IMG/VR virus record: IMGVR_UViG_2690316233_000017 | Span: 1-21,923 of that record | DNA from: a virus | Taxonomy: Duplodnaviria; Heunggongvirae; Uroviricota; Caudoviricetes | Length of the DNA stretch: 21,923 nt | Direction: 5' to 3' (one strand) | Shown: positions 635 through 10,792 of the stretch, piece by piece | Layout of the letters: each line of letters starts with the position of its first letter | Numbering within the stretch: the stretch's first letter is position 1 | Notes under the pieces: model-generated | What the model was told of the DNA's origin: nothing | Seen by the model: only the letters and a program-made list of their open reading frames with translations | The model's database searches: none | Translations under genes and position numbers: made by a program

Positions 635-1744
635 TCACTCTGTTTCCGCTATCCATTCCGGGATTTTTGCCTCAAGCTCAAGCTGTGTGGTAAAGCCACT
701 GTTATCAATGGTGTGCTCGGCTTTTGCAATAATCCAGTCCTGATTATCAATCTCGCTTTTAAATCCTGTTACCGTGCCATGCATTTCGGGGTAGAGTTCT
801 GCGCGTCCACGTGCCAGTGTGATGGAGAATGATGCGGCTCCGCGTTGTAGCTGCTGCCACTTTGCCGCCGCTGCGCGTCTTGCTGCCTGCTCGTTCTGAT
901 AAGTCTTGCGTAACACAAACACATTGCCTTCCGCACCTTCCATATAATCACCTTCACGGCTGCTGCTTTTCTCCTTTTTGGGTTTTGGCGGTTTGCGGCG
1001 TTTCACGCTGACTTTTTTCTTTTTCCCGTAATTAAGATCAAGCCAGTAAGCGCGTACCCCCGTATACGCTTCGCGGTCAGCAATGCGGAACTGATGGCGA
1101 TCGCCACTGCTGCGCGTGATGGCGAACGATGGCAACGGCTGGCCCTGTGCGTTCACGCCACCGCCTGGCATAATGAATAACAGATTACCGCTTTTTACCG
1201 TGGTGATTGCGCCCAGCATTTCCGCCATGCGCGTAAGAAAGGACATGTCGCTTTCTTCGGTCTGGTCGGCGTGGTCGATTTCGATATCCATCAGCATTTC
1301 GCTGATTTGTGGTTTCAGACCGTACCGATGAGCGATGGCGGATACCACACGCTCAACGGTCACATCATGCCAGGACACCTCACGTTTAACGTTAAATTCA
1401 TCCCGAAAATCTGCGCTTCTGGCTGAAACAGTCAGCCTGTCCGGCGGTCCTTCGTGAGCGATTTCATCAACAATGTAAGTGCCTTTTTCTGTCAGCGGTT
1501 CCCCTTTCCAGCCAATGAGAACCGTCAGACGCGCGCCCCGTGGCGGTAGCTGCAACTGGCCATCGGCATCATCCAGCGTGATGGTGAGCTGGTCCGCCTC
1601 AAATCCCCGGTTGTCGGTCAGCGACAGGCTCATCAGGCGCTCTGCCACGCCGGACAGCGTTTTACCCTCCGCGAGAATATCAAAATCCGGCATTTTCACG
1701 GGGTCTGTGCCCTGACTGAGCAATTGCATGGTGGTGTCGGTCAT
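635..1744 (-). CDS. D: Tail protein D (late control gene D family)
   Basis: Long ORF with gpD-like sequence. Start set at the internal ATG 1744 (MTDTTMQLLSQG...), which is preceded by GGAGGG; the 44-codon extension in the ORF track has no RBS. Confidence 0.8.
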   Translation of the reverse strand: MTDTTMQLLSQGTDPVKMPDFDILAEGKTLSGVAERLMSLSLTDNRGFEADQLTITLDDADGQLQLPPRGARLTVLIGWKGEPLTEKGTYIVDEIAHEGPPDRLTVSARSADFRDEFNVKREVSWHDVTVERVVSAIAHRYGLKPQISEMLMDIEIDHADQTEESDMSFLTRMAEMLGAITTVKSGNLLFIMPGGGVNAQGQPLPSFAITRSSGDRHQFRIADREAYTGVRAYWLDLNYGKKKKVSVKRRKPPKPKKEKSSSREGDYMEGAEGNVFVLRKTYQNEQAARRAAAAKWQQLQRGAASFSITLARGRAELYPEMHGTVTGFKSEIDNQDWIIAKAEHTIDNSGFTTQLELEAKIPEWIAETE

Positions 1745-1801
1745 CTGTTCCCTCCCTGTGCGGCATGGTCGCATGTGCGTGCGGAGTGGGTTACTGCTTT
1801 T

Positions 1802-1822
1802 TGTTGTCGCCGTGGCGGGAGA
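1802..1822 (+). promoter_or_regulatory. Candidate Ogr-dependent late promoter element upstream of FI
   Basis: TTGTTGT-N12-AGAA lies about 90 bp upstream of the FI ATG and resembles the TGT-N12-ACA activator dyad of P2 late promoters with one mismatch. A near-identical motif precedes gene P at 19119..19139. Confidence 0.35.
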
Positions 1823-1901
1823 ATAGCGCAGGGGTGAGATTACGCGCGTGGTGGGTGATGATTGTTGCTGAATCATTTAACGGATACAAGGGGCTGAAGC
1901 T

Positions 1902-3086
1902 ATGAGTGAAACTCGTTTTCATGGTGCCCGTGTTACGGAAAGTACCGACCTGGTAACAGCGATTAATGATGTTGATTCCAGTGTTATCGGTATCGTGGCA
2001 ACGGCGGATGATGCGGATGCGGAGCTGTTCCCGCTGAACAAGCCCACACTGCTGACCCGCGTCAATGACGTGCTGGGAAAATGCGGAACAACGGGGACGC
2101 TGTATCGTGCGCTTAAGGCCATCGCAGACCAGGTGAGCACAAAGGTGATCGTCGTTCGCGTGGCTGAACACAAAGAAGAAGACGGAAAGACGCAGGATCA
2201 ACTGGTTATCGGTGGTTCTGAGGATGACGGCAGCTATACGGGGATGTATGCGCTGCTTGTTGCAGAGCAGGATGAAAGCATCGGATACCGTCCGCGTATT
2301 CTGGCCGCGCCGGAGCTGGACACGGAGGCGGTAACAAAATCCCTGTGCGTGATTGCGGGTAAACTGCGCGCGTTTGTGTATGCCTCATGTCACGGCTGCA
2401 ACACGATGGCTGAGGCGATTACCTACCGCCAGAAATTCAACGAGCGTGAGGTGATGCTCTTATGGCCGGACTTCATCGCCTACAACCCGAAAAGTGGCAA
2501 AAACGAAACGTTCCCCGCGCCTGCCTATGCGTGCGGCCTTCGTGCGTACATTGACCATGAGCAGGGCTGGCACAAATCGCTGTCCAACGTTCCGGTTAAA
2601 AATGTGCTGGGGATGTCCAGGCATGTGTTTTGGTCGTTGCAGGCCGAAGACAGTGATGCCAACAGCCTCAACAACAAAGAAATCACGACCATTATTCGTC
2701 GCAACGGGTTCCGCTTCTGGGGCAACCGCACACCGGAAACGAACGCCTACATCTTTGAGGTGTATACCCGAACCGCACAGGTGCTGGCTGATTCAATTGC
2801 GGAAGCGCAGTTTGAAACCATCGACAGTCCACTGACGCCTGCGAACGTGAAAGATGTTATCAGTGCCATCAGGGCAAAACTGGATTCACTGGTTACTGCC
2901 GGGAAACTGATTGGCGCGGAGTGCTGGTATGACATCGTGGATAACAGCACCACGAATTTACGTCAGGGGCGCGTGCGTATTCGCTACAAATATACGCCTG
3001 TTCCCCCGTTGGAAGACATGGAGCTTTACCAGTCGTTTACTGATGAATTCTTTGGTCCCGCATTTGCGGTGCTGGGAGGTGCCTGA
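1902..3086 (+). CDS. FI: Contractile tail sheath protein
   Basis: 394-aa ORF with the characteristic ...DADAE.FPLNKP... region of P2 FI. RBS AAGGGG sits 8 nt upstream of the ATG. Confidence 0.9.
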   Translation: MSETRFHGARVTESTDLVTAINDVDSSVIGIVATADDADAELFPLNKPTLLTRVNDVLGKCGTTGTLYRALKAIADQVSTKVIVVRVAEHKEEDGKTQDQLVIGGSEDDGSYTGMYALLVAEQDESIGYRPRILAAPELDTEAVTKSLCVIAGKLRAFVYASCHGCNTMAEAITYRQKFNEREVMLLWPDFIAYNPKSGKNETFPAPAYACGLRAYIDHEQGWHKSLSNVPVKNVLGMSRHVFWSLQAEDSDANSLNNKEITTIIRRNGFRFWGNRTPETNAYIFEVYTRTAQVLADSIAEAQFETIDSPLTPANVKDVISAIRAKLDSLVTAGKLIGAECWYDIVDNSTTNLRQGRVRIRYKYTPVPPLEDMELYQSFTDEFFGPAFAVLGGA

Positions 3087-3598
3087 TGGCTGTACCAAAA
3101 CATCTTCGCTTTTTTACGCTGTTTGTGGATGGTGAAAACGAAGTGGGTAAGGTGACGTCCGTCACTCTGCCTAAGCTGACGCGCAAAACCGACAGCTACC
3201 GGGGTGGTGGCATGATGGGTGCGGTAAGTATTGATCTCGGTCTGGACGACTCCGCGCTTGATGCGAGCTTTGTCATGGGGGGCGCAGTTCGTGAGCTGTT
3301 CCTTAAGTATGGCGGCACGATTGACGGCACGCTGCTGCGTTTTGCGGGTGAATACTACACCGATGCAGAAAGCGACCTGTATGAAGTCGAAATGCGCGGA
3401 CGTGTGACGGAAATTGATATGGGGGAAGCCAAACAGGGCGAAGCCACATCACACACTTACGCCATTAAAAACACCTACTACAAGCTGAGTGTTAACGATC
3501 GCCCGTTGTGGGAGATTGACCTGCTGAACTTCATTTACCGGAAGGACGGCAAGGACATTGTGCCCGATCGCATCCGTTCCGCGCTCGGGCTTGGCTGA
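3086..3598 (+). CDS. FII: Tail tube protein
   Basis: 170-aa ORF directly after the sheath gene; its ATG overlaps the FI stop (TGATG). Size and position match P2 FII. Confidence 0.9.
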   Translation: MAVPKHLRFFTLFVDGENEVGKVTSVTLPKLTRKTDSYRGGGMMGAVSIDLGLDDSALDASFVMGGAVRELFLKYGGTIDGTLLRFAGEYYTDAESDLYEVEMRGRVTEIDMGEAKQGEATSHTYAIKNTYYKLSVNDRPLWEIDLLNFIYRKDGKDIVPDRIRSALGLG

Positions 3599-3652
3599 TA
3601 AGTAATATGCAGGCGGCGCAGTGCGTCGCCTCTGACTGAAAGGAGTTTCCTG

Positions 3653-4018
3653 ATGAAAGAGACGAAAAACATCGATACCGAAAACACGGTCGTTGCTGAC
3701 ACTGTGAAAGAAACCAGTGAGCGTGGCGTAAAACTTACCCAACCAATTGAGCGAGGCGGCGAAAAAATCACGTATGTGGAGATCACCGGGGCTATTGAGC
3801 AGGCTGGATCTCTGCGAGATTTATCGCTGTCTGATGTGCTGAATCTGAAAGCGGAATCCATGTTTACGCTGCTGTCACGCGTGACATCACCGCGACTGGA
3901 TGAAGTGACGATCAAAAAAATGGCATCCCGTGATTTTATTCAGTTATGTGTGGTTGCCGTAAATTTTTTGAGCGGTGCGGACTCTGGCGGGAAGAACGAA
4001 CAGGCGACGGAAGCCTGA
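3653..4018 (+). CDS. E: Tail assembly chaperone E (zero-frame product)
   Basis: 121-aa ORF between the tube and tape-measure genes, with AAAGGAG RBS. Contains a T TTT TTG slippery heptamer near its 3' end. Confidence 0.8.
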   Translation: MKETKNIDTENTVVADTVKETSERGVKLTQPIERGGEKITYVEITGAIEQAGSLRDLSLSDVLNLKAESMFTLLSRVTSPRLDEVTIKKMASRDFIQLCVVAVNFLSGADSGGKNEQATEA

Positions 4019-4182
4019 TCACGGTTGTGTGCTTTGAGCACATAGAAGACTTTGTGGCGGATATTGCCGCCATTTTTAACTGGTCGCCCGCCGAAATCTT
4101 CATGATGACGCCCGGCGAAGTGGTTAGCTGGCGTGAGCGGGCGGCACTTCGCAGCGGGAATGCAGACAATGAAGACTCTTGA
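3653..4182 (+). CDS. E': Tail assembly chaperone E+E' (predicted -1 frameshift product)
   Basis: The -1 frame is open from 3946 to 4182 and overlaps the end of E. A shift at T_TTT_TTG (3964..3970) would join the two frames, analogous to P2 E/E' and lambda G/GT. Confidence 0.55.
3964..3970 (+). other. Programmed -1 ribosomal frameshift slippery heptamer T_TTT_TTG
   Basis: The heptamer is in phase with the E reading frame (codons aat-ttt-ttg) and lies inside the E/E' overlap window. Confidence 0.55.
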
Positions 4183-6976
4183 TATCCGGGTCGCTTTCAG
4201 CGCCGTTGACAGGCTGACCCGGCCTGCCGAAAACGCCCGCCGCCTGATGGGGCAGTTTGGTGACTCCATCCAGCGAACGCAGGGGGCGATCAAAAATCTC
4301 GAGCGTCAGGCGCGATCATTTGAGCGCGCCCGCGACGCTGTCAGTAAAGCGGATGCGGGTATCGTGAAAGCACGACGCCAGCTTAACGCCCTTAATCAGT
4401 TACAACGCACGGGTACAGTGCTCAGCGAAAAACAACAAAAGCTGATGCAGCAGTTAAGCACCCGGCTTGAACGCCTGAATGAATCGCGCACACGGGAAAT
4501 TCAGAAAATGCGGGAGCTTGGCGGAGAGCTGAAACGCCACGGCATTTCCCTGACAGGCAGCGATAACACCATCCAGCAGGCCATCAGACGCACCGAACAG
4601 TACAACAACCAGCTTGAACGCGAACGGCAGGCGCTTGCGCGTGTAACGCGGGCGCGTGAGCGGTATTCGCGCGCGCAGGAAACCGCGGGAAAACTGAAAA
4701 CAGGTGGTGCGCTGGCAATTGGTGCGGCAGCGGCGGGCGGCTATGCTGCCGGGCGTTTTTTGCAGCCTGCGATCGGGTTCGGCAAAGAGATGTCCCGCGT
4801 TCAGGCACTGACGCGAATCGACAAAAACAGCCCGCAGTTTAAGGCGCTGCGTGAGCAGGCGTTAAAACTTGGCTCTGAAACACAGTTTACTGCGAGTGAT
4901 GCCGCCAGTGGGCAGAGCTTTCTGGCAATGGCTGGTTTTACTCCGCAGGCCATTCAGGCCGCATTGCCCGGTGTTCTTAATATGGCGCTGGCAGGTGGCG
5001 TCGAACTCGGCGAGACGGCGGATATAGGCTCCAATATCCTCACACAGTTCAACCTGACAGCCGATCAAATGGACCGGGTGGGCGATACGCTGACAGCAGC
5101 ATTTACCCGGACCAATACTGATTTACGCGCGCTGGGCGAAACCATGAAGTATACCGGTCCGGTTGCCGCAAAACTTGGTATCAGTCTTGAAGAAGCGGCG
5201 GCCATGGCCGGGATGCTTGCCAATAATGGTCTTCGCGGAAGCGATGCTGGCACGGCCATGCGCGCAAGTCTGTCCCGCCTTGCATCACCGCCAAAAGCTG
5301 CGGCTGATGCACTGAAAGAGCTGGGGGTGTCAGTTGCTGACGCCAGAGGCAAAATGCGCCCGATGGAGGATGTGCTGCTTGATCTCTATAAGGCGACACA
5401 AAAATACGGACAGGTGGACCAGGTCTCCTTTTTCAAGGACATCGCCGGAGAAGAGGCGTTCGTTGGTTTGCAGACGCTTGTTGCGGCGGCTGGTTCAGGA
5501 GAGCTGCAAAAACTGACCAGAGAATTGCAGGGGGCAAGGGGAGAGGCCGATCGCGTTGCAAAAGTAATGGCCGATAATCTTGATGGGGACCTGAAAAATC
5601 TCGACAGCGCATGGGAAGGTCTTCGTATTCGCATCAGTGATCTGGTTGACGGTCCGCTGCGTTCTGTCACGCAGTGGCTCACGCGGGTGCTTGAAAAAAT
5701 CACCTCGCTGGCGCAGGCCCATCCGGTACTGACACGCCAGCTACTGATAGCAGGCGGTGCGTTGCTGGCAATGACTGCAACGATTGGCTCGTTGTCGCTG
5801 GTTATTGGGGTGCTTTACGGAAAGCTGGCCACCCTGCGTCTTGGTTTTGACATTCTTACCCGGTCAATGAATGTCGTCAGGGTGTTGCCTGCGCTGTGGG
5901 GAATGCTGACGGGTTCCGTTTCTTTGCTGGGAGGCGCTATCGGGGCGCTGTTCAGTCCGGTTGGTCTTATCGTGGCTGCGCTTGCCGGAGCTGCCGTTCT
6001 TATCTGGAAATACTGGGATCCCATCAGGGCATTTTTTGCCGGGGTGTTCAGCGGGATTATGGAAAGGCTGAACCCGTTGCGTGAAACCTTTGAACGGTTT
6101 GGCCCTGTTTTTGACGCAATCGGAAGCGGGATCAGCCAGGTGTTTAACTGGTTTAAATCGCTGCTGTCACCGATGGAGTCCAGCAAGGAAACGCTGGATA
6201 AATGTACCAGTGCTGGCGAGATATTCGGTAACGTTCTTGGTGGCGCGTTACAGCTTGTTCTGACGCCTGCAAAAATGTTGCTGGATACGCTGGCGTGGAT
6301 ACTTGAAAAACTCGGTGTTCTTCCGGATGAAGCGGAAAGGGCGAGAAAGAAAATCGAAGACGCACAGCGTGCGGCCATTCTTCAGGACAAGGTTGCCTTG
6401 CTTCAGGGGGACCTGGCGAAAATCAATCCGCCGAAGCCTGTGGAAAATGGCAATGGCACCGGAGGTGATAACCCCAAAGACAACAAACCGCTCACAGACA
6501 GCAATACCGGTACGCTACGCAGACTCAGCAAAATTGCTGATAACACAGGTAAGCTGGTTGATGTGACGAAAAAACGCATTGGCCCCGGCGATATTGTCTT
6601 TAAGAACCTGCCCCGCGCACTTGCTGTTCGTGGGGAGTGGCAGGAGCGGAAGATTGCGCAGGTCAGTAAGCCTGCCCCCGCAATTAATATCACACCCGTG
6701 GTTCCGGCTCCGCTGCCTCCGGCGCTGGTCCCTGTTGTTGCGGCCAGCTCCCGCCCGGTGGCGGAGGCCATACGATCGCCAGTGGCATCAGTTCCTGCAA
6801 CTTCCCGTAACCGTGAGCCTGTTGCCTCCGGATTTGGCGGTGAAATTCATGTTCATCTGCATAACGTTGTTACACAGAATCCCCGCGAACTGGCGAAACT
6901 GGTCGGTGAAATGGTCAGGGCAGAAATGGAACGGCGCGCCCGTGCCGGGCGTGGCAGTTTTTACGATAAAGATTGA
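4160..6976 (+). CDS. T: Tail tape measure protein
   Basis: About 939-aa ORF with a coiled-coil-like N-terminus, a central hydrophobic/Gly-Ala-rich segment and a Pro-rich C-terminus, placed after E/E' as in P2. Start is ambiguous between ATG 4160 and ATG 4169; the ORF track's 4133 begins on a non-ATG codon. Confidence 0.85.
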   Translation: MQTMKTLDIRVAFSAVDRLTRPAENARRLMGQFGDSIQRTQGAIKNLERQARSFERARDAVSKADAGIVKARRQLNALNQLQRTGTVLSEKQQKLMQQLSTRLERLNESRTREIQKMRELGGELKRHGISLTGSDNTIQQAIRRTEQYNNQLERERQALARVTRARERYSRAQETAGKLKTGGALAIGAAAAGGYAAGRFLQPAIGFGKEMSRVQALTRIDKNSPQFKALREQALKLGSETQFTASDAASGQSFLAMAGFTPQAIQAALPGVLNMALAGGVELGETADIGSNILTQFNLTADQMDRVGDTLTAAFTRTNTDLRALGETMKYTGPVAAKLGISLEEAAAMAGMLANNGLRGSDAGTAMRASLSRLASPPKAAADALKELGVSVADARGKMRPMEDVLLDLYKATQKYGQVDQVSFFKDIAGEEAFVGLQTLVAAAGSGELQKLTRELQGARGEADRVAKVMADNLDGDLKNLDSAWEGLRIRISDLVDGPLRSVTQWLTRVLEKITSLAQAHPVLTRQLLIAGGALLAMTATIGSLSLVIGVLYGKLATLRLGFDILTRSMNVVRVLPALWGMLTGSVSLLGGAIGALFSPVGLIVAALAGAAVLIWKYWDPIRAFFAGVFSGIMERLNPLRETFERFGPVFDAIGSGISQVFNWFKSLLSPMESSKETLDKCTSAGEIFGNVLGGALQLVLTPAKMLLDTLAWILEKLGVLPDEAERARKKIEDAQRAAILQDKVALLQGDLAKINPPKPVENGNGTGGDNPKDNKPLTDSNTGTLRRLSKIADNTGKLVDVTKKRIGPGDIVFKNLPRALAVRGEWQERKIAQVSKPAPAINITPVVPAPLPPALVPVVAASSRPVAEAIRSPVASVPATSRNREPVASGFGGEIHVHLHNVVTQNPRELAKLVGEMVRAEMERRARAGRGSFYDKD

Positions 6977-6988
6977 GGAGTCATGGCC

Positions 6989-7477
6989 ATGATGATGATC
7001 TACGGCATGTTTGTTTTTGAGCTGCGCACGCTGCCGCATCAGCAGTTACAGCAAAACAAAAGCTGGCGGCATGTGAAAAATGAGCGCGTTAACCGTTCAG
7101 CAAGCTGGCAGTATATCGGTGCAGGTGATGATCGCATCGTTCTTTCTGGTGTGCTTTATCCTGAAATTACAGGTGGCGAAGTGTCGCTGTCGCTGCTGAC
7201 CACGCAGGCGTATACAGGACGACCCTGGCCTTTGATTGATGGCGTCGGGCAGATTTACGGCATGTATGTCCTGACCGGAACGAATACGACCCGTTCCGAG
7301 TTTGATCGCTACGGTAAGGCGAAAAAGATAGAATTTTCACTGACCCTTGAACGCTGTGATGAGGATTTGCGGGAGCGCCTGCAATCCTCATCGTTCAGCG
7401 ATATGCTGTCCGGCTTCAAAGATAAAGTGACATCATCCCTTAACAGCGCGGCCAGTTCAGTTAAAGGGCTGTTCTGA
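6989..7477 (+). CDS. U: Tail protein U
   Basis: gpU-like ORF immediately after T. GAGGAG at 6975..6980 is spaced 8 nt from ATG 6989; the ATG at 6983 is only 2 nt from it. Confidence 0.8.
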   Translation: MMMIYGMFVFELRTLPHQQLQQNKSWRHVKNERVNRSASWQYIGAGDDRIVLSGVLYPEITGGEVSLSLLTTQAYTGRPWPLIDGVGQIYGMYVLTGTNTTRSEFDRYGKAKKIEFSLTLERCDEDLRERLQSSSFSDMLSGFKDKVTSSLNSAASSVKGLF

Positions 7478-7484
7478 TTTAATG

Positions 7485-7524
7485 CTGGCCACTCATACCC
7501 TCATACCTGGTAATGAGTGGCCAG
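7485..7524. terminator. Perfect 12-bp inverted repeat hairpin just after the U stop; possible bidirectional terminator
   Basis: CTGGCCACTCAT (7485..7496) and ATGAGTGGCCAG (7513..7524) flank a 16-nt loop, followed by TCTT. The U-tract is weak, so terminator function is not certain. Confidence 0.35.
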
Positions 7525-7647
7525 TCTTAACACTCACCATTTGATTGCACCAGTGTTAACGATTTGTTACCGGATATCAGACGCGCTGGATAGCCAGTAG
7601 AAACATACCATTAAAATTATTACAATAATTGGTCACATGATTATCTT

Positions 7648-8211
7648 ATGCTAAATAATAGAGATATGAATATTAATGAACTTAAAGACTGTATTCACTA
7701 TGAAGTAATCGGTAGCGAGCGTCCTTTCTCCTGGCGAAAGGCAATTGTTCGCGCAATAAAACATAGAAGAGTTCGTTATTTATTTTGGTGGCGCATAGCC
7801 AAATACCTTTTTGATAAAGGCGGATACTGTCGGAAGATTGCGGGGAAAATAGAACGTTTCATTCTTGATAAATATAATGTAACAGTCCCTTTAACTGTAA
7901 ATATAGGGAAAGGCTTTGATATTTCTTATCTCAATAGTGTTGTTATCGGTCACAAAGTAACCATCGGTGAAAATTGTTCAATAAAACCAGGGGTAACTAT
8001 TGGGCTACGTGGTGATTTTAATGATATGGATATTGTTATAGGACATAATGTGACCATTGGTTGTAATGCCACCATTCTTGGTGGCAAAGTGCGTATAGGA
8101 AACAATGTCACAATAGGTGCTCATGCATTGGTATTGCATGATATTCCTGATGATTCAACATTCATCACTAAATTTCAGTCTGAAGTTATCTGCTCGTCCT
8201 CCCGCACATAA
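7648..8211 (+). CDS. Hexapeptide-repeat (left-handed beta-helix) acetyltransferase, WcaB/CysE-like; cargo gene
   Basis: Repeated [LIV]-G-x-x-x-x hexapeptides ([22 protein letters not shown]...[34 protein letters not shown]) after a helical N-terminal region, as in serine/sugar O-acetyltransferases. Strongly AT-rich by eye compared with the flanking phage genes. Start could also be ATG 7666. Confidence 0.7.
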
Positions 8212-8792
8212 CCCTGATTCATCAGCTCTGGCCATACGATATCCGGAGCTGTACTGGTGTCAATTCGACTCACTAATACTCTGTATTTTCTCCAGGAATC
8301 CAGTTGTGAATTTTCCTCGTTTGTTGCTATTTCAAGATTAACGGCATCCTGCAGAATTGCGATGTTATCTGTTGCCTCCTGGATCAACCTTGCCTTTTTC
8401 TCTTCCGCTTCCCGTATCCGAAACAGTTTTTCTGCTTCCTCATCCTTCACCCAGGATACGCCGTCCCACTTCTGATACTCCCCTGCTGGCGACAACCAGG
8501 TGACATTCTCTGGTAGCGGTCCGGGTTCAGAAATAAACAACGCGTCCCCCGAGGCCACGTCATAGACCGTTTTACCACGATGGTCTTCAACAATATTCCA
8601 CGATTCATTTTCACTGTTAAAAACTGCCACAAAGCCAGCAGGAATTTCCGGTGGGGCGATATCTGTAGAATTAGCTGGCAGCCCTGTATGAGGTGGAATA
8701 TATGCGTCACCTTCACCAATAAACTCATTAGTTCCGGCCAGCAGGTTATAAATTTTTACAGTACGTGATTGTTCACTCATTCTGAATGCCAT
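8175..8792 (-). CDS. G: Tail fiber assembly protein (Tfa chaperone)
   Basis: C-terminal ...[19 protein letters not shown] matches the conserved Tfa motif. ATG at 8792 overlaps the H stop (TAATG) with GAGG RBS. The last ~12 codons overlap the acetyltransferase gene 3' end. Confidence 0.8.
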
Positions 8793-10792
8793 TATGCAAG
8801 CCTCACAATATAATTAAATGCGATGTTTTTAACGGTGTTTTCCGCGTTACCAGCAGCGTTAACGGTGATGGTATGTCCATGTGAACCAATCGCAACAGAG
8901 TGCGTATGAGCGCCAATACCAACTGTATGTGCATGCGCCCCTGCACTTGCAGCAGTGCCTGATACTGAGTGGGTGTGTGCACCAGAAGAAGGCACTGTTC
9001 CATTCCCCACGACCGTGCCACTTGATGCACCATCAAGCCAGTCGAAATTCATACCTCCACTGTTTGGTCTCCTTAATGGAACGGTATGAGTATGTGCGCC
9101 AGCACTATTTGCAGTACCAGATACATTGTGGGTATGTGCACCTGTGTTATTCGTTGATTTAGTACCGTAATCAAACGACGATGTGGTTTTCGTACCCAAA
9201 TCCGTACTGGATGCGCTGGCACTGTGGGTGTGCGATTTAATGCCATCCTGTTCCTGAGACAATACGGCTCGACCACTTGCGGGCTTGCCCTTGATTGTCC
9301 AGCCACGCATATCGGGGAGTACACCAGAGGGATAAGCTGCTGCAAGCAGGGGATAGGTTGTTTTATCAAAAGTCTGCCCCTGCATAACGGCATAGCCTGT
9401 AGGCACTGAATCAGAAGGCCACGGAATCGCCGCACCTACAGGAAATGAATCCTGCGGCGTCCATGCTGTCCAGTCACCCGTTGAGTACTGGCTGCGGGTA
9501 TAGCTTCTGGATGTGTTATACACATAGTAAATCTGTGTTATCCCGGCACTTTTAAGCACAACCAGTGTACCGGCAAGATTCTCTGGGTATTTCAGCGCTG
9601 CACTTGTATTGGCATTCGCAGGCTGATGGTACAGCCCCGGCGTTTTGTAATTATCCAGATTCTGGTTTGCACCAATCTCAATACTCTGATCGTTAAAAAT
9701 ATCCTGTGATGTAACATTGACATCATTGGTCAGTGGTTTGCCATTAACCTTACGTCCAGAGGGCACACGCCCGTTTGCATTGTCATTAGCAGCTTTCACC
9801 GCTTTCGGAGTCGCGGCAAGCGTTTCAGACGTGCTGTTGGTTGCACTAGTAAGCTGGACTATCCCTTTTTGTGCTGTTGTTGCATCCTGTGCGGTGTATT
9901 TGCCATTAGCAAGGTCATATGCTGCCTTTACCGCCTTTGGCGTTGCCGCCAGCGTTTCAGAATCGCTGTTGGTGGCACTACTTAGCTGGACAAGACCTTT
10001 TCGCTCTGTGGTAGCGTCCTGTGCGGTATATTTCCCGTTAGCAAGGTCATATGCTGCCTTTACCGCCTTTGGCGTTGCCGCCAGCGTTTCAGAATCGCTA
10101 TTGGTGGCGCTACTGAGCTGAACAAGGCCTTTTCGCGTCGTGCTGGCATCCTGCGCAGTATATTTCCCGTTAGCAAGGTCATACGCGTCCTTTACTGCTT
10201 TCGGCGTTGCAGCTTGTGTTTCAGACACGCTGTTAGTGGCGCTACTGAGTTGAACAAAGCCTTTTGCGGTCAGCGAGGCGTCCGGGTGACGTCGTGACTG
10301 TTCATGCTCTTTCAGTTTGTCATCCACGTAATCCACTGTGGCCATCACCATGGTGTTATCCACGGTAAGTGCCACGGTGGCAGTGCTGGATACGGTCAGA
10401 ATGGTGCGAAATGTCTGTGCACGACCGGACCCTTCGGCAACGGCTGGCTTGTAACTTTCGGCAGTATTGCCTACCGCGATTAAATCGCCGTGCTCATCAA
10501 ACACACCAATTTCCCGGATCCAGAATCCGCCCGTTTCTGGAGGAATAGCCAGCTCCGCAATAATGCGGTTCTGATGTGTTGCGTCCAGGAAGACGCGATT
10601 AACGGTATGTCGCCACACCTCACGCACAAGACGGGTCTGCTTACTGTCTGGCGTGGGTAAAGTACCGCCGCCGTCACCCACGGCCATATGTGTCAGGCGG
10701 ACGGGTTTACCATCTGGTGCGGCTGCCTGCGCTAATTTTTTGGCACCCGTATCGGTGATAATGGTTTTAAATTTTCGTGTTGTGGTACTCAT
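8792..10792 (-). CDS. H: Tail fiber protein
   Basis: 666-aa ORF with an N-terminal region like P2 H, four tandem 44-aa repeats, and a His-rich C-terminal domain with repeated G-A-H-T-H-x-V motifs. Confidence 0.9.
9765..10290. repeat. Four tandem ~132-bp repeats inside the tail fiber gene
   Basis: The same core sequence recurs at 9909, 10041 and 10173 (period 132 bp), with a more diverged copy upstream. It encodes ...[42 protein letters not shown]... four times. Confidence 0.8.

What the first reader, a model, noticed from the sequence alone, without database searches (positions are those of the whole stretch)
7478..8215. AT-rich hexapeptide-repeat acetyltransferase cargo gene in the hotspot next to G
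A 187-aa WcaB/CysE-like left-handed beta-helix acetyltransferase sits in an AT-rich island, on the opposite strand to the flanking tail genes, at the position where P2 carries its variable Z/fun locus. An enzyme of this family in a prophage could O-acetylate a surface polysaccharide (O-antigen or capsule) for lysogenic conversion or receptor masking, or it could be part of an uncharacterised anti-phage function. The sequence does not tell these apart.
Basis: partly seen in the sequence, partly recalled or inferred. Interest (0 to 1): 0.65.

Follow-up and report, generated by a model that had tools for sequence, protein, structure and literature searches.

The report
Prophage acetyltransferase-like gene beside tail fibre
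A small AT-rich gene for a serine-acetyltransferase-fold protein travels with the tail-fibre tip and fibre-chaperone genes of several unrelated E. coli phages; it probably changes the lysogen's surface sugars, but the family's catalytic histidine is a tyrosine here and its function has never been tested.

Summary

It is not CysE or WcaB. All curated cut-offs are missed and every SAT substrate and catalytic residue is changed. The near-universal catalytic His is Tyr94. This substitution is confined to the closest clade (53% identity or more), which is under purifying selection (dN/dS 0.02-0.19).

The gene lies convergent with the tail-fibre assembly gene G, with a 37-nt 3' overlap. A ~1.9-kb cassette (this gene, G and the last ~218 codons of fibre H) is ~95% identical in a 47-kb phage-plasmid and a P1-like phage-plasmid. 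More distant homologues (37-53%) hold the same convergent position in four other phage genomes.

In sister P2-like prophages the slot usually holds an invertase plus an alternative fibre segment. It is a host-range hotspot, as already published.

PADLOC finds nothing. Three of three sampled cellular relatives sit in polysaccharide loci.

Best reading (about 0.4): a lysogen-expressed moron that modifies a surface glycan. Function is untested.

The parts
7479..7530 (+). Strong stem-loop just after the gpU stop codon. It is probably the end of the FI-U tail operon and would insulate the acetyltransferase-like gene from it. It has no T-run, so terminator function is inferred.
   Evidence: 18-nt arms, 89% complementary. 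RNA fold -28.1 kcal/mol, z = -7.19, with 0 of 200 shuffles as stable.
7598..7626 (+). Candidate sigma-70 promoter (TAGAAA-17-TACAAT) for the acetyltransferase-like gene. It lies inside the 70-nt upstream stretch that is conserved wherever the cassette occurs.
   Evidence: Consensus scan, 9 of 12 matches. This is weak on its own: 8 sites were found in the region against 4.6 expected. The stretch 7578-7647 is retained in the P1-like and 47-kb phage-plasmid copies.
7648..8211 (+). Acetyltransferase-like gene. The longest ORF is 187 aa; the likely true start is 7666 (181 aa). The protein has a SAT-type helical N-domain (residues ~9-76) and a left-handed beta-helix (~80-175). Tyr94 sits at the catalytic-His position.
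   Evidence: (phrog_2154, 4e-79, full length).
8175..8211 (.). 37-nt convergent 3' overlap between the acetyltransferase-like gene and the tail-fibre assembly gene. It involves only the non-conserved C-terminal tails of both proteins.
   Evidence: ORF coordinates. The chaperone runs 15 aa beyond the conserved WPE(L/M) end seen in P2 G. In five other phages the two stop codons are 10-43 nt apart.
8175..8792 (-). Tail-fibre assembly (chaperone) gene, the G/Tfa homologue. Its last ~70 codons are the allele-specific part that is co-inherited with the acetyltransferase-like gene.
   Evidence: Pfam Caudo_TAP 1.6e-39. The ~86%-identical lambdoid tfaR/tfaQ relatives match only from window 8395 onward. 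The chaperone's C-terminal allele co-varies with the acetyltransferase allele.
8792..9445 (-). Last ~218 codons of tail-fibre gene H (whole gene 8792..10792). This is the receptor-binding tip and the third member of the mobile cassette.
   Evidence: Pfam Phage_tail_fib, Phage_fiber_2 and Collar. Nucleotide identity of ~95.5% to pECO-b75 and to a P1-like phage-plasmid stops at 9444/9445.
7578..9445 (.). The ~1.9-kb mobile cassette as a whole: promoter region, acetyltransferase-like gene, chaperone and fibre tip. In the 47-kb phage-plasmid the shared stretch begins at 7387 and includes a relic of the gpU 3' end.
   Evidence: blastn of the window against fetched loci. In E. coli genomes, 186 records carry the acetyltransferase region and 188 records match the cassette at >=90% identity.
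6983..7477 (+). gpU tail gene, the conserved left flank of the variable slot. Homology among ~1300 E. coli prophages ends at about 7482.
   Evidence: Pfam Phage_P2_GpU 1.5e-38. Most matches end at query position ~500.

Best explanation
The gene is a prophage 'moron' that belongs to the phage's receptor-binding module. [quoted passage not shown]

Proposed mechanism:
1. The gene is transcribed from its own promoter in the lysogen. A strong hairpin insulates it from the FI-U tail operon, and it runs convergent to the silent fibre operon.
2. The protein, presumably a trimer, acylates a sugar of a cell-envelope glycan while that glycan is still being built on the cytoplasmic side. Candidates are an O-antigen, ECA or colanic-acid repeat unit, a nucleotide sugar, or the LPS core.
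3. The altered surface changes adsorption of phages, most plausibly those carrying the same kind of fibre tip. That would explain why the gene stays glued to the tip-plus-chaperone cassette when the cassette moves between P2-like, P1-like and other myovirus backbones.

Shown here: the fold; the relationship to polysaccharide-locus enzymes; AT-rich foreign composition; purifying selection; cassette linkage; the absence of CysE features.

Inferred: expression in the lysogen; trimer formation; acetyl-CoA use; the glycan substrate; the receptor-masking outcome. Because the usual catalytic His is Tyr, the chemistry may differ from textbook O-acetylation, for example N-acylation of an amino sugar, which needs no base.
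For: Fold and family:
- Hexapep match.
- AF2 pLDDT 88.3, pTM 0.81.
- Foldseek top 50 hits are all serine acetyltransferases, TMq 0.60-0.74.

Nearest cellular relatives: about 185-aa proteins flanked by glycosyltransferases, NeuB, CMP-sugar synthetases and Wzx-type flippases, in three of three sampled.

Localisation: no membrane segment (largest 19-residue hydropathy 1.06).

Functional constraint: dN/dS is 0.02-0.19 between alleles, for example dN 0.049 and dS 0.551 against the yfhH prophage copy. All 25 rows listed and the four close copies translated are intact.

Foreign, moron-like composition: 0.32-0.38 GC in six phages, against 0.40-0.50 for the adjacent chaperone gene.

Linkage to the receptor-binding module:
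- The ~1.9-kb cassette is ~95.5% identical in three phage backbones.
- Homologues of 37-91% identity are convergent with the chaperone gene, stops within -37 to +43 nt. These are in Hafnia phage yong2, Citrobacter phiNP, P1-like JL22 (inside the cin-invertible fibre segment), a prophage at yfhH and the O157:H7 DEC4E P2-like prophage.
- Cassette copies at >=90% identity (188 records) match in number the records carrying the acetyltransferase region (186).
- A 31%-identical homologue follows the receptor-binding genes of S. thermophilus 987-group phages.

Against: - The catalytic histidine (E. coli SAT His158, N. gonorrhoeae His162; PMC8786284) aligns with Tyr94 in phmmer and three MAFFT alignments. 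His is present in 95 of 113 homologues and in 118 of 122 cluster representatives. Tyr is seen only in this close clade plus one other representative.
- No replacement His is conserved across the Tyr clade. H102 and H133 are lost in yong2, P0013 and P0014.
- No glycan substrate can be named, and the cassette occurs in many serotypes.
- Similar fibre tips and chaperone N-domains (75-79% aa) go with very different acetyltransferase alleles (37% aa). This fits simple physical adjacency as well as functional coupling.
- Some family members are not next to fibre genes: ESSI2_ev015 (next to int), P0014 and P0009.
- Promoter evidence is only a 9/12 consensus match.
- No experiment on any family member was found. 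The JL22 paper calls its role unknown (PMC9603915).
Confidence: 0.4

Rival explanations
1. Non-catalytic or re-purposed beta-helix protein. After the His-to-Tyr change the protein no longer transfers acyl groups. It would act by binding, for example sequestering a nucleotide sugar or acyl-CoA, or docking on a host or phage protein. The outcome (exclusion, defence or regulation) would depend on occupancy rather than turnover.
For: - Tyr94 replaces the general base, and all other SAT active-site positions differ: T79, S93, H102, M127 and D128 in place of Asp147, Asp161, Glu170, Arg196 and His197 of the N. gonorrhoeae enzyme (PMC8786284).
- The Tyr state is clade-specific yet maintained under purifying selection down to 53% identity.
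Against: - The rest of the pocket and the beta-helix signature are kept: IGKG, IGxN and the invariant Gly and Asn residues.
- His-bearing sister proteins occupy the same genomic position, which suggests one shared function.
- Some beta-helix N-acyltransferases work without a catalytic base (QdtC and WlbB appear; the mechanism is from my own knowledge).
Confidence: 0.2
2. Anti-phage defence gene unrelated to the cell surface. It would be a single-gene system in the P2 Z/fun-type hotspot that acetylates or binds a phage or host component and blocks infection inside the cell.
For: - The slot downstream of G is a published variable hotspot that can hold defence genes (P2 fun(Z) blocks T5; bioRxiv 10.1101/2024.10.15.618418; PMC13586616).
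- The gene is AT-rich, apparently independently transcribed and prophage-borne.
Against: - No PADLOC family at E<=1.
- PHROG 2154 has no assigned function.
- The hotspot papers checked do not mention an acetyltransferase.
- In four sister prophages sampled, the slot holds fibre-switching modules (three) or another acetyltransferase (one), not defence systems.
- The family follows fibre genes in non-P2 phages.
Confidence: 0.15
3. Small-molecule (xenobiotic or metabolite) acyltransferase that gives the host a fitness benefit. It would detoxify an antibiotic, toxin or sugar analogue, as Vat, CatB and maltose/galactoside acetyltransferases do.
For: Weak beta-helix-only similarity to Vat, CatB, LacA and Maa models and structures. 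Prophage cargo listed as 'fitness' in C. rodentium phiNP (PMC6456863).
Against: - Scores are far below the cut-offs, 22-31 bits against 300-475.
- The architecture is SAT-like with an N-terminal helical domain, not XAT- or Maa-like.
- The catalytic His that those enzymes need is missing.
- This reading gives no explanation for the fibre linkage.
Confidence: 0.08
4. True serine O-acetyltransferase, as annotated in RefSeq and GenBank. It would be an auxiliary metabolic gene boosting O-acetylserine and cysteine supply.
For: Database product names 'serine acetyltransferase'. The best structural neighbours are CysE enzymes.
Against: - TIGR01172 scores 70.5 bits against a 210.65 cut-off, and PRK11132 scores 44 against 397.
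- None of the serine-binding or catalytic residues is kept: Asp147, Asp161, His162, Glu170, Arg196 and His197 of the N. gonorrhoeae enzyme (PMC8786284).
- The protein stops a few residues after the beta-helix, whereas the CysE chains continue for a further 30-40 residues. That this CysE tail binds CysK is from my own knowledge.
- The nearest cellular relatives are in glycan loci.
Confidence: 0.02

Closest known systems
NeuO, the polysialic-acid O-acetyltransferase of E. coli K1 prophage CUS-3
   Different: NeuO did not appear in the sequence search of solved structures at E<=0.001. It aligns only over the beta-helix, 111 residues. From my own knowledge, NeuO belongs to the NodL/LacA/Maa branch, has a catalytic His and is phase-variable through 5' heptanucleotide repeats. 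No such repeats are present here. This protein has a SAT-type N-domain, Tyr at the base position and a myovirus fibre context.
Short SAT-like acetyltransferases of polysaccharide loci (NCBIfam EpsC NF041874; WcaB TIGR04016/PRK10191)
   Same: Same two-domain architecture and length (~160-190 aa). These give the best profile alignments: EpsC covers residues 30-173 against profile positions 16-157 of 168. The sampled relatives lie in glycan clusters. The IGKGF...IGENC...IGNNV motifs are shared.
   Different: Scores are below every curated cut-off: 80.7 against 150, 62.2 against 196, 59.8 against 194.65. The conserved His of 'IGKGFxIxH' is Tyr here. The phage family has its own N-terminal signature, EVIG..FSWRK..FLFWWRIA. 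It is encoded on phages, not in a glycan locus.
Serine O-acetyltransferase CysE
   Same: Closest solved structures. The helical N-domain plus beta-helix superpose over ~155 residues at 2.3-2.9 A.
   Different: The protein is shorter, aligning to only the last part of the CysE N-domain. None of the seven CysE active-site positions listed in PMC8786284 could be shown to be kept: six are changed and Asp96 could not be aligned. It has no C-terminal tail and misses the model cut-offs.
P2 Z/fun hotspot and the receptor-binding-protein swapping hotspot of P2-like phages
   Same: Same place relative to G. In P2, fun(Z) is also convergent just after G and is AT-rich nonessential cargo. The literature describes this locus as mixed-purpose, with fibre and chaperone swapping, invertases and inversion of adjacent genes (bioRxiv 10.1101/2024.10.15.618418).
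   Different: No similarity to Fun(Z). The other flank is gpU because FI-U is inverted. The cargo also travels outside P2-like phages as part of the fibre cassette.
Serotype-converting modules of P22-like and Sf6-like phages (GtrABC, Oac). This comparison is from my own knowledge and was not tested here.
   Same: These are lysogen-expressed genes next to the tailspike or receptor-binding gene. They alter the very glycan the phage binds.
   Different: Those are membrane proteins acting on the periplasmic side or during O-antigen assembly. This protein is soluble with a beta-helix fold.

Membership tests
Left-handed beta-helix (hexapeptide-repeat) transferase superfamily | Hexapeptide repeats detected by the Pfam Hexapep model above its gathering score | tested here: met
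   PF00132: 47.5 bits against 27, E 1.1e-12, two stretches.
Left-handed beta-helix (hexapeptide-repeat) transferase superfamily | Left-handed beta-helix fold | tested here: met
Left-handed beta-helix (hexapeptide-repeat) transferase superfamily | [quoted passage not shown] | tested here: not met
   Tyr94 aligns with His162 of the N. gonorrhoeae enzyme (His158 in E. coli). His is present in 95 of 113 and 118 of 122 relatives.
Left-handed beta-helix (hexapeptide-repeat) transferase superfamily | Trimer with acyl-CoA bound at subunit interfaces | not testable with these tools
   Only a monomer model could be made. No ligand or multimer prediction is available.
Serine O-acetyltransferase CysE | Score above the curated equivalog cut-off | tested here: not met
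   TIGR01172: 70.5 against 210.65. PRK11132: 44.2 against 397.
Serine O-acetyltransferase CysE | Catalytic dyad Asp143-His158 and serine-binding Asp92, Asp157, Arg192 and His193 (E. coli numbering) | tested here: not met
   The aligned residues are T79, Y94, S93, M127 and D128 (with residue roles from PMC8786284). The Asp92 equivalent could not be aligned.
Colanic-acid acetyltransferase WcaB / EPS acetyltransferase EpsC | Score above the curated equivalog cut-off | tested here: not met
   WcaB: 62.2 against 196 and 59.8 against 194.65. EpsC: 80.7 against 150.
Colanic-acid acetyltransferase WcaB / EPS acetyltransferase EpsC | Encoded within a polysaccharide biosynthesis cluster | tested here: not met
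   The gene lies between phage tail genes U and G. Distant relatives do lie in such clusters.
PHROG 2154 (phage protein family of unknown function) | Full-length match to the family profile | tested here: met
   E 4e-79, 265 bits, residues 5-186 against profile positions 2-184 of 185.
Prophage lysogenic-conversion glycan acetyltransferase (NeuO-like in function) | Prophage-encoded, nonessential, foreign composition, next to the receptor-binding gene | tested here: met
Prophage lysogenic-conversion glycan acetyltransferase (NeuO-like in function) | Demonstrated acetylation of a surface glycan, with changed serotype or phage adsorption | not testable with these tools
   This needs wet-lab work. 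No report was found for any family member.
Known anti-phage defence families (PADLOC-DB v2) | Match to any defence-protein model | tested here: not met
   No family at E<=1.
P2 Z/fun hotspot cargo | Variable gene content between conserved tail genes immediately downstream of G | tested here: met
   Homology among ~1300 prophages ends at the gpU stop. Contents differ between UTI89, E2348/69, C311, DEC4E and this window. P2 layout.

The most novel reading that the evidence does not exclude
The fibre tip, its chaperone and this beta-helix protein form one portable 'host-range plus self-exclusion' module. Whichever phage acquires the tip would also acquire a protein that masks that tip's receptor in its own lysogen. 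On this reading the Tyr-for-His clade does the job by chemistry not yet described for this fold, or by binding alone as a pseudoenzyme.
Probability: 0.15. Interest if true: 0.65.

Novelty: new variant of a known kind. Interest (0 to 1): 0.4.

Why it matters
If the protein masks the receptor recognised by the fibre tip it travels with, swapping a receptor-binding module would change two things at once. It would change what a phage can infect and what its lysogen can resist. That bears on host-range prediction, on phage-therapy cocktails against E. coli carrying P2-like prophages or P1-like phage-plasmids, and possibly on serotyping.

The gene is common, in 184 of 5426 complete E. coli genomes including O121:H19 STEC, and on phage-plasmids. 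It is routinely mislabelled 'serine acetyltransferase'.

The conserved Tyr in place of the catalytic His is a cheap, testable question about how much chemistry the beta-helix acyltransferase scaffold tolerates.

If it turns out to be an ordinary glycan O-acetyltransferase moron, the result is modest: one more lysogenic-conversion gene and a corrected annotation.

Tried and rejected
- PADLOC scan for defence families: nothing at E<=1.
- CysE and WcaB orthology: rejected on cut-offs and active-site residues.
- Phase variation like neuO: Tandem Repeats Finder found only an 8-nt x2 repeat in the hairpin loop and none in the gene.
- Relic of an invertase crossover site: a gix-like 26-mer (sequence recalled from memory) and the core AAACCNNGGTTT gave no match in the window. 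This is a weak test.
- Known RNA families in 7300-8900: only a sub-threshold IS009 hit inside the chaperone gene.
- Membrane anchoring: no hydrophobic segment.
- 'Decaying pseudogene': rejected by dN/dS 0.02-0.19 and intact copies.
- The inverted repeats between the gene's 5' region and its interior (7604-7641 against 8015-8067) are not nested. I treated them as chance in AT-rich DNA.
- Literature: four full-text searches for an acetyltransferase next to a tail-fibre assembly gene, for P2 hotspot acetyltransferases and for five RefSeq accessions returned nothing. Papers that mention the gene only list it or call its role unknown.
- The AlphaFold-database fold library was not available.
- I could not inspect model coordinates, so the placement of Tyr94 rests on sequence alignments to solved SATs.
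Full report
**1. What is in the sequence**

An ORF runs 7648..8211 on the + strand, 187 aa.
- RefSeq annotates the identical gene in E. coli O121 RM8352 from the ATG equivalent to window 7666 (181 aa). Homologues begin at that methionine. I therefore take 7666 as the likelier start.
- GC drops to 0.34-0.36 across 7601-8200. It is 0.52-0.585 upstream and 0.46-0.485 in the G/H genes just downstream, rising above 0.53 only beyond ~10000. The gene itself is 0.37 and the neighbouring gene 0.47.
- Upstream lie the tape-measure gene T (4133..6976 +) and gpU (6983..7477 +; Pfam Phage_P2_GpU 1.5e-38).
- Downstream and convergent lie the tail-fibre assembly gene (8175..8792 -; Caudo_TAP 1.6e-39) and fibre gene H (8792..10792 -).

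The two convergent genes overlap by 37 nt. The overlap covers only non-conserved tails, because the chaperone runs 15 residues past the WPE(L/M) end that closes P2 G.

A very stable hairpin (7479-7530, -28.1 kcal/mol, z -7.2) follows gpU. A modest promoter-like site lies at 7598-7626.

**2. What the protein is**

- Pfam Hexapep is matched above threshold.
- NCBIfam aligns it best to EpsC, CysE and WcaB. Every score is far below its cut-off: 80.7 against 150, 70.5 against 210.65, 62.2 against 196.
- It is a full-length member of PHROG 2154, a family of unknown function.
- An AF2 model built on 28 sequences has pLDDT 88.3. It shows four N-terminal helices followed by a left-handed beta-helix.
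- The Foldseek top 50 hits are all serine acetyltransferases, TMq 0.60-0.74.
- There is no hydrophobic segment.

**3. It is not CysE, and the catalytic histidine is missing**

Residue roles come from the N. gonorrhoeae SAT paper (PMC8786284). His162 and Asp147 form the catalytic dyad. Asp96, Asp161, Glu170, Arg196 and His197 complete the site.

The phmmer alignment to chain 6wye places these window residues at the SAT positions:

| SAT residue (N. gonorrhoeae) | Window residue |
|---|---|
| Asp147 | T79 |
| Asp161 | S93 |
| His162 (catalytic) | Y94 |
| Glu170 | H102 |
| Arg196 | M127 |
| His197 | D128 |

Three MAFFT alignments agree on Tyr94.
- Among 113 homologues the position is His in 95, Tyr in 14 and Asn in 4. 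The 14 Tyr proteins are exactly the closest clade, at 53% identity or more.
- Among 122 representatives of 50%-identity clusters it is His in 118.
- Sister phage proteins at 37-49% identity keep His. These are from O157 DEC4E, JL22, phiNP and ESSI2.
- The Tyr clade is not decaying. dN/dS is 0.02-0.19 for pairs with measurable dS, for example dN 0.049 and dS 0.551.
- No alternative His is conserved through the clade.

The protein is functional, but ordinary base-assisted O-acetyl transfer cannot be taken for granted.

**4. Relatives outside phages**

An exhaustive HMMER scan finds 7918 relatives at E<=0.001 but only 4 at E<=1e-30. The phage family is a small clade within a huge superfamily.

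Three cellular relatives of 27-34% identity were looked up. All lie among glycosyltransferases, NeuB, CMP-sugar synthetases, a polysialyltransferase-like gene or a Wzx-type flippase. The ancestry points to glycan O-acetyltransferases, not to cysteine metabolism.

**5. Context: a receptor-binding cassette**

The 738-nt region occurs in 184 of 5426 complete E. coli genomes, with 59 places on plasmids. It also occurs on 58 plasmid records, 55 of them non-mobilizable.

blastn shows that window 7387/7578..9445 is ~95.5% identical in two other backbones:
- the 47-kb phage-plasmid pECO-b75, of the same type as phage vB_EcoM-613R2;
- a ~99-kb P1-like phage-plasmid.

The shared piece comprises the gene with its upstream 70 nt, the chaperone gene and the last ~218 codons of H.

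The plasmid copy even keeps 90 nt of the gpU 3' end, so it came from a P2-like phage with this layout.

More distant family members sit in the same convergent position, with stop codons 10-43 nt apart:

| Genome | aa identity to window protein |
|---|---|
| Prophage at yfhH (L019) | 91% |
| Hafnia phage yong2 | 53% |
| Citrobacter phiNP | 39% |
| P1-like JL22, between the two alternative chaperone genes of the cin-invertible segment | 37% |
| O157:H7 DEC4E P2-like prophage | 37% |

In E. coli genomes, 188 records match the cassette at >=90% identity and 186 records carry the acetyltransferase region. The ~3800 records with ~86%-identical lambdoid stfR/tfaR-type genes match only from window 8395 onward and lack the gene.

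The chaperone's C-terminal ~65 residues co-vary with the acetyltransferase allele. Its N-domain and the fibre tip are shared more widely.

Exceptions exist: ESSI2_ev015 (next to int), P0020 (prophage edge), P0014 and P0009.

A 31%-identical, His-bearing homologue follows the receptor-binding genes in S. thermophilus 987-group phages.

**6. The slot**

- P2 itself has H-G, then a terminator, then fun(Z) on the opposite strand, then FI-FII-E-T-U-D.
- Here D (true start near 1732) is divergent from FI, and FI..U is inverted.
- That D|FI junction is present in 1360 of 5426 genomes, so it is a lineage trait and not an artefact.
- Homology among ~1300 gpU-bearing prophages stops at the gpU stop codon.
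- UTI89, E2348/69 and C311 carry an invertase plus an alternative fibre segment and a second chaperone gene in the slot. DEC4E carries the other acetyltransferase type.
- This agrees with a preprint describing the Z/fun hotspot as a mixed-purpose locus with fibre and chaperone swapping, invertases and inverted neighbours (10.1101/2024.10.15.618418).
- The hotspot itself is therefore known. The acetyltransferase cargo is not discussed there, in Rousset et al. 2022 or in the 2026 NAR survey.

**7. Interpretation**

The best-supported reading (about 0.4) is a lysogen-expressed moron that acylates an envelope glycan precursor in the cytoplasm and thereby alters phage adsorption.
- The functional analogue is NeuO of prophage CUS-3, which acetylates the K1 capsule and protects against K1 phages (PMC9659370).
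- The long-lived synteny with the receptor-binding module is the main argument.
- The Tyr-for-His change, the unknown substrate and the possibility of mere hitchhiking are the main objections.

Rivals:
- a non-catalytic or re-purposed beta-helix protein (0.2);
- an intracellular defence gene (0.15; no PADLOC hit);
- a small-molecule acyltransferase (0.08);
- a true CysE (0.02).

**8. Novelty and score**

The gene is already in databases. It is labelled 'serine acetyltransferase', a name the sequence does not support, and papers mention it as cargo of unknown role (PMC9603915, PMC6456863).

New here:
- the cassette-level linkage across phage backbones;
- the shared slot with invertible fibre modules;
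- the clade-specific loss of the catalytic His under purifying selection.

I rate it a new variant of a known kind, with interest 0.4. It is a reasonable bench target, not a surprise to a phage specialist unless the receptor-masking coupling or unusual chemistry is borne out.

Noticed in passing
window 635-7477 (D on -, FI..U on +): The FI-FII-E-T-U tail block is inverted relative to phage P2, while D and ogr keep the P2 orientation. D (true start ~1732) and FI (1902) are therefore divergent neighbours with ~170 nt between them. This D|FI junction is present in 1360 of 5426 complete E. coli genomes, so it marks a very common P2-like lineage.
   Followed up: partly
L023 5524-8157, L025 5522-7745, L026 5531-8152 (slot equivalent to window 7478-8175): In sister prophages (UTI89, E2348/69, C311) the same slot holds a serine-recombinase invertase, an alternative fibre C-terminal segment and a second chaperone gene. 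This is a Mu/P1-type host-range switch.
   Followed up: partly
L002 2401-2491 (equivalent to window 7387-7477): The 47-kb phage-plasmid pECO-b75 keeps ~90 nt of the gpU 3' end and the hairpin upstream of its copy of the gene, next to repA. This is a footprint showing the cassette was acquired from a P2-like phage with the inverted layout.
   Followed up: no
window 8251-8449 (-): Full-length but sub-threshold match to Rfam IS009 (82.6 bits against a gathering score of 117, E 9.6e-19). It lies inside the 3' half of the tail-fibre assembly gene, on the coding strand. It probably reflects homology to tfa genes of K-12 cryptic prophages rather than a separate RNA gene.
   Followed up: no
window 9770-10306: Fibre gene H contains about four tandem ~132-nt repeats (75-83% identical to each other). 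They correspond to the four Phage_fiber_2 repeats of the protein.
   Followed up: no
L001 7169-8022 and 13523-14000: In E. coli O121 RM8352 the otherwise 99.7%-identical prophage has a truncated D gene and a frameshifted gpU, so that copy is probably defective. The window's D and U are intact, and the acetyltransferase-like gene is intact in both.
   Followed up: no
window 7604-7641 and 8015-8067: Two adjacent inverted-repeat pairs (14 nt at 93% and 23 nt at 83%) link the gene's promoter/5' region with its interior. They are not nested as a hairpin would require, so they are probably chance in AT-rich DNA.
   Followed up: no
L027 5010-5537 (Streptococcus phage 9871): A 31%-identical, His-bearing homologue with the same FLFW(M/W)R N-terminal motif sits between the last tail/receptor-binding gene and the holin genes of S. 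thermophilus 987-group phages. The association with the receptor-binding module therefore extends to Gram-positive phages.
   Followed up: partly
L024 6855-7858: In O157:H7 DEC4E an IS3-family element follows the chaperone gene, and the fibre gene is missing. parM-like partition genes and a replication endonuclease lie beyond it, so that prophage is rearranged.
   Followed up: no
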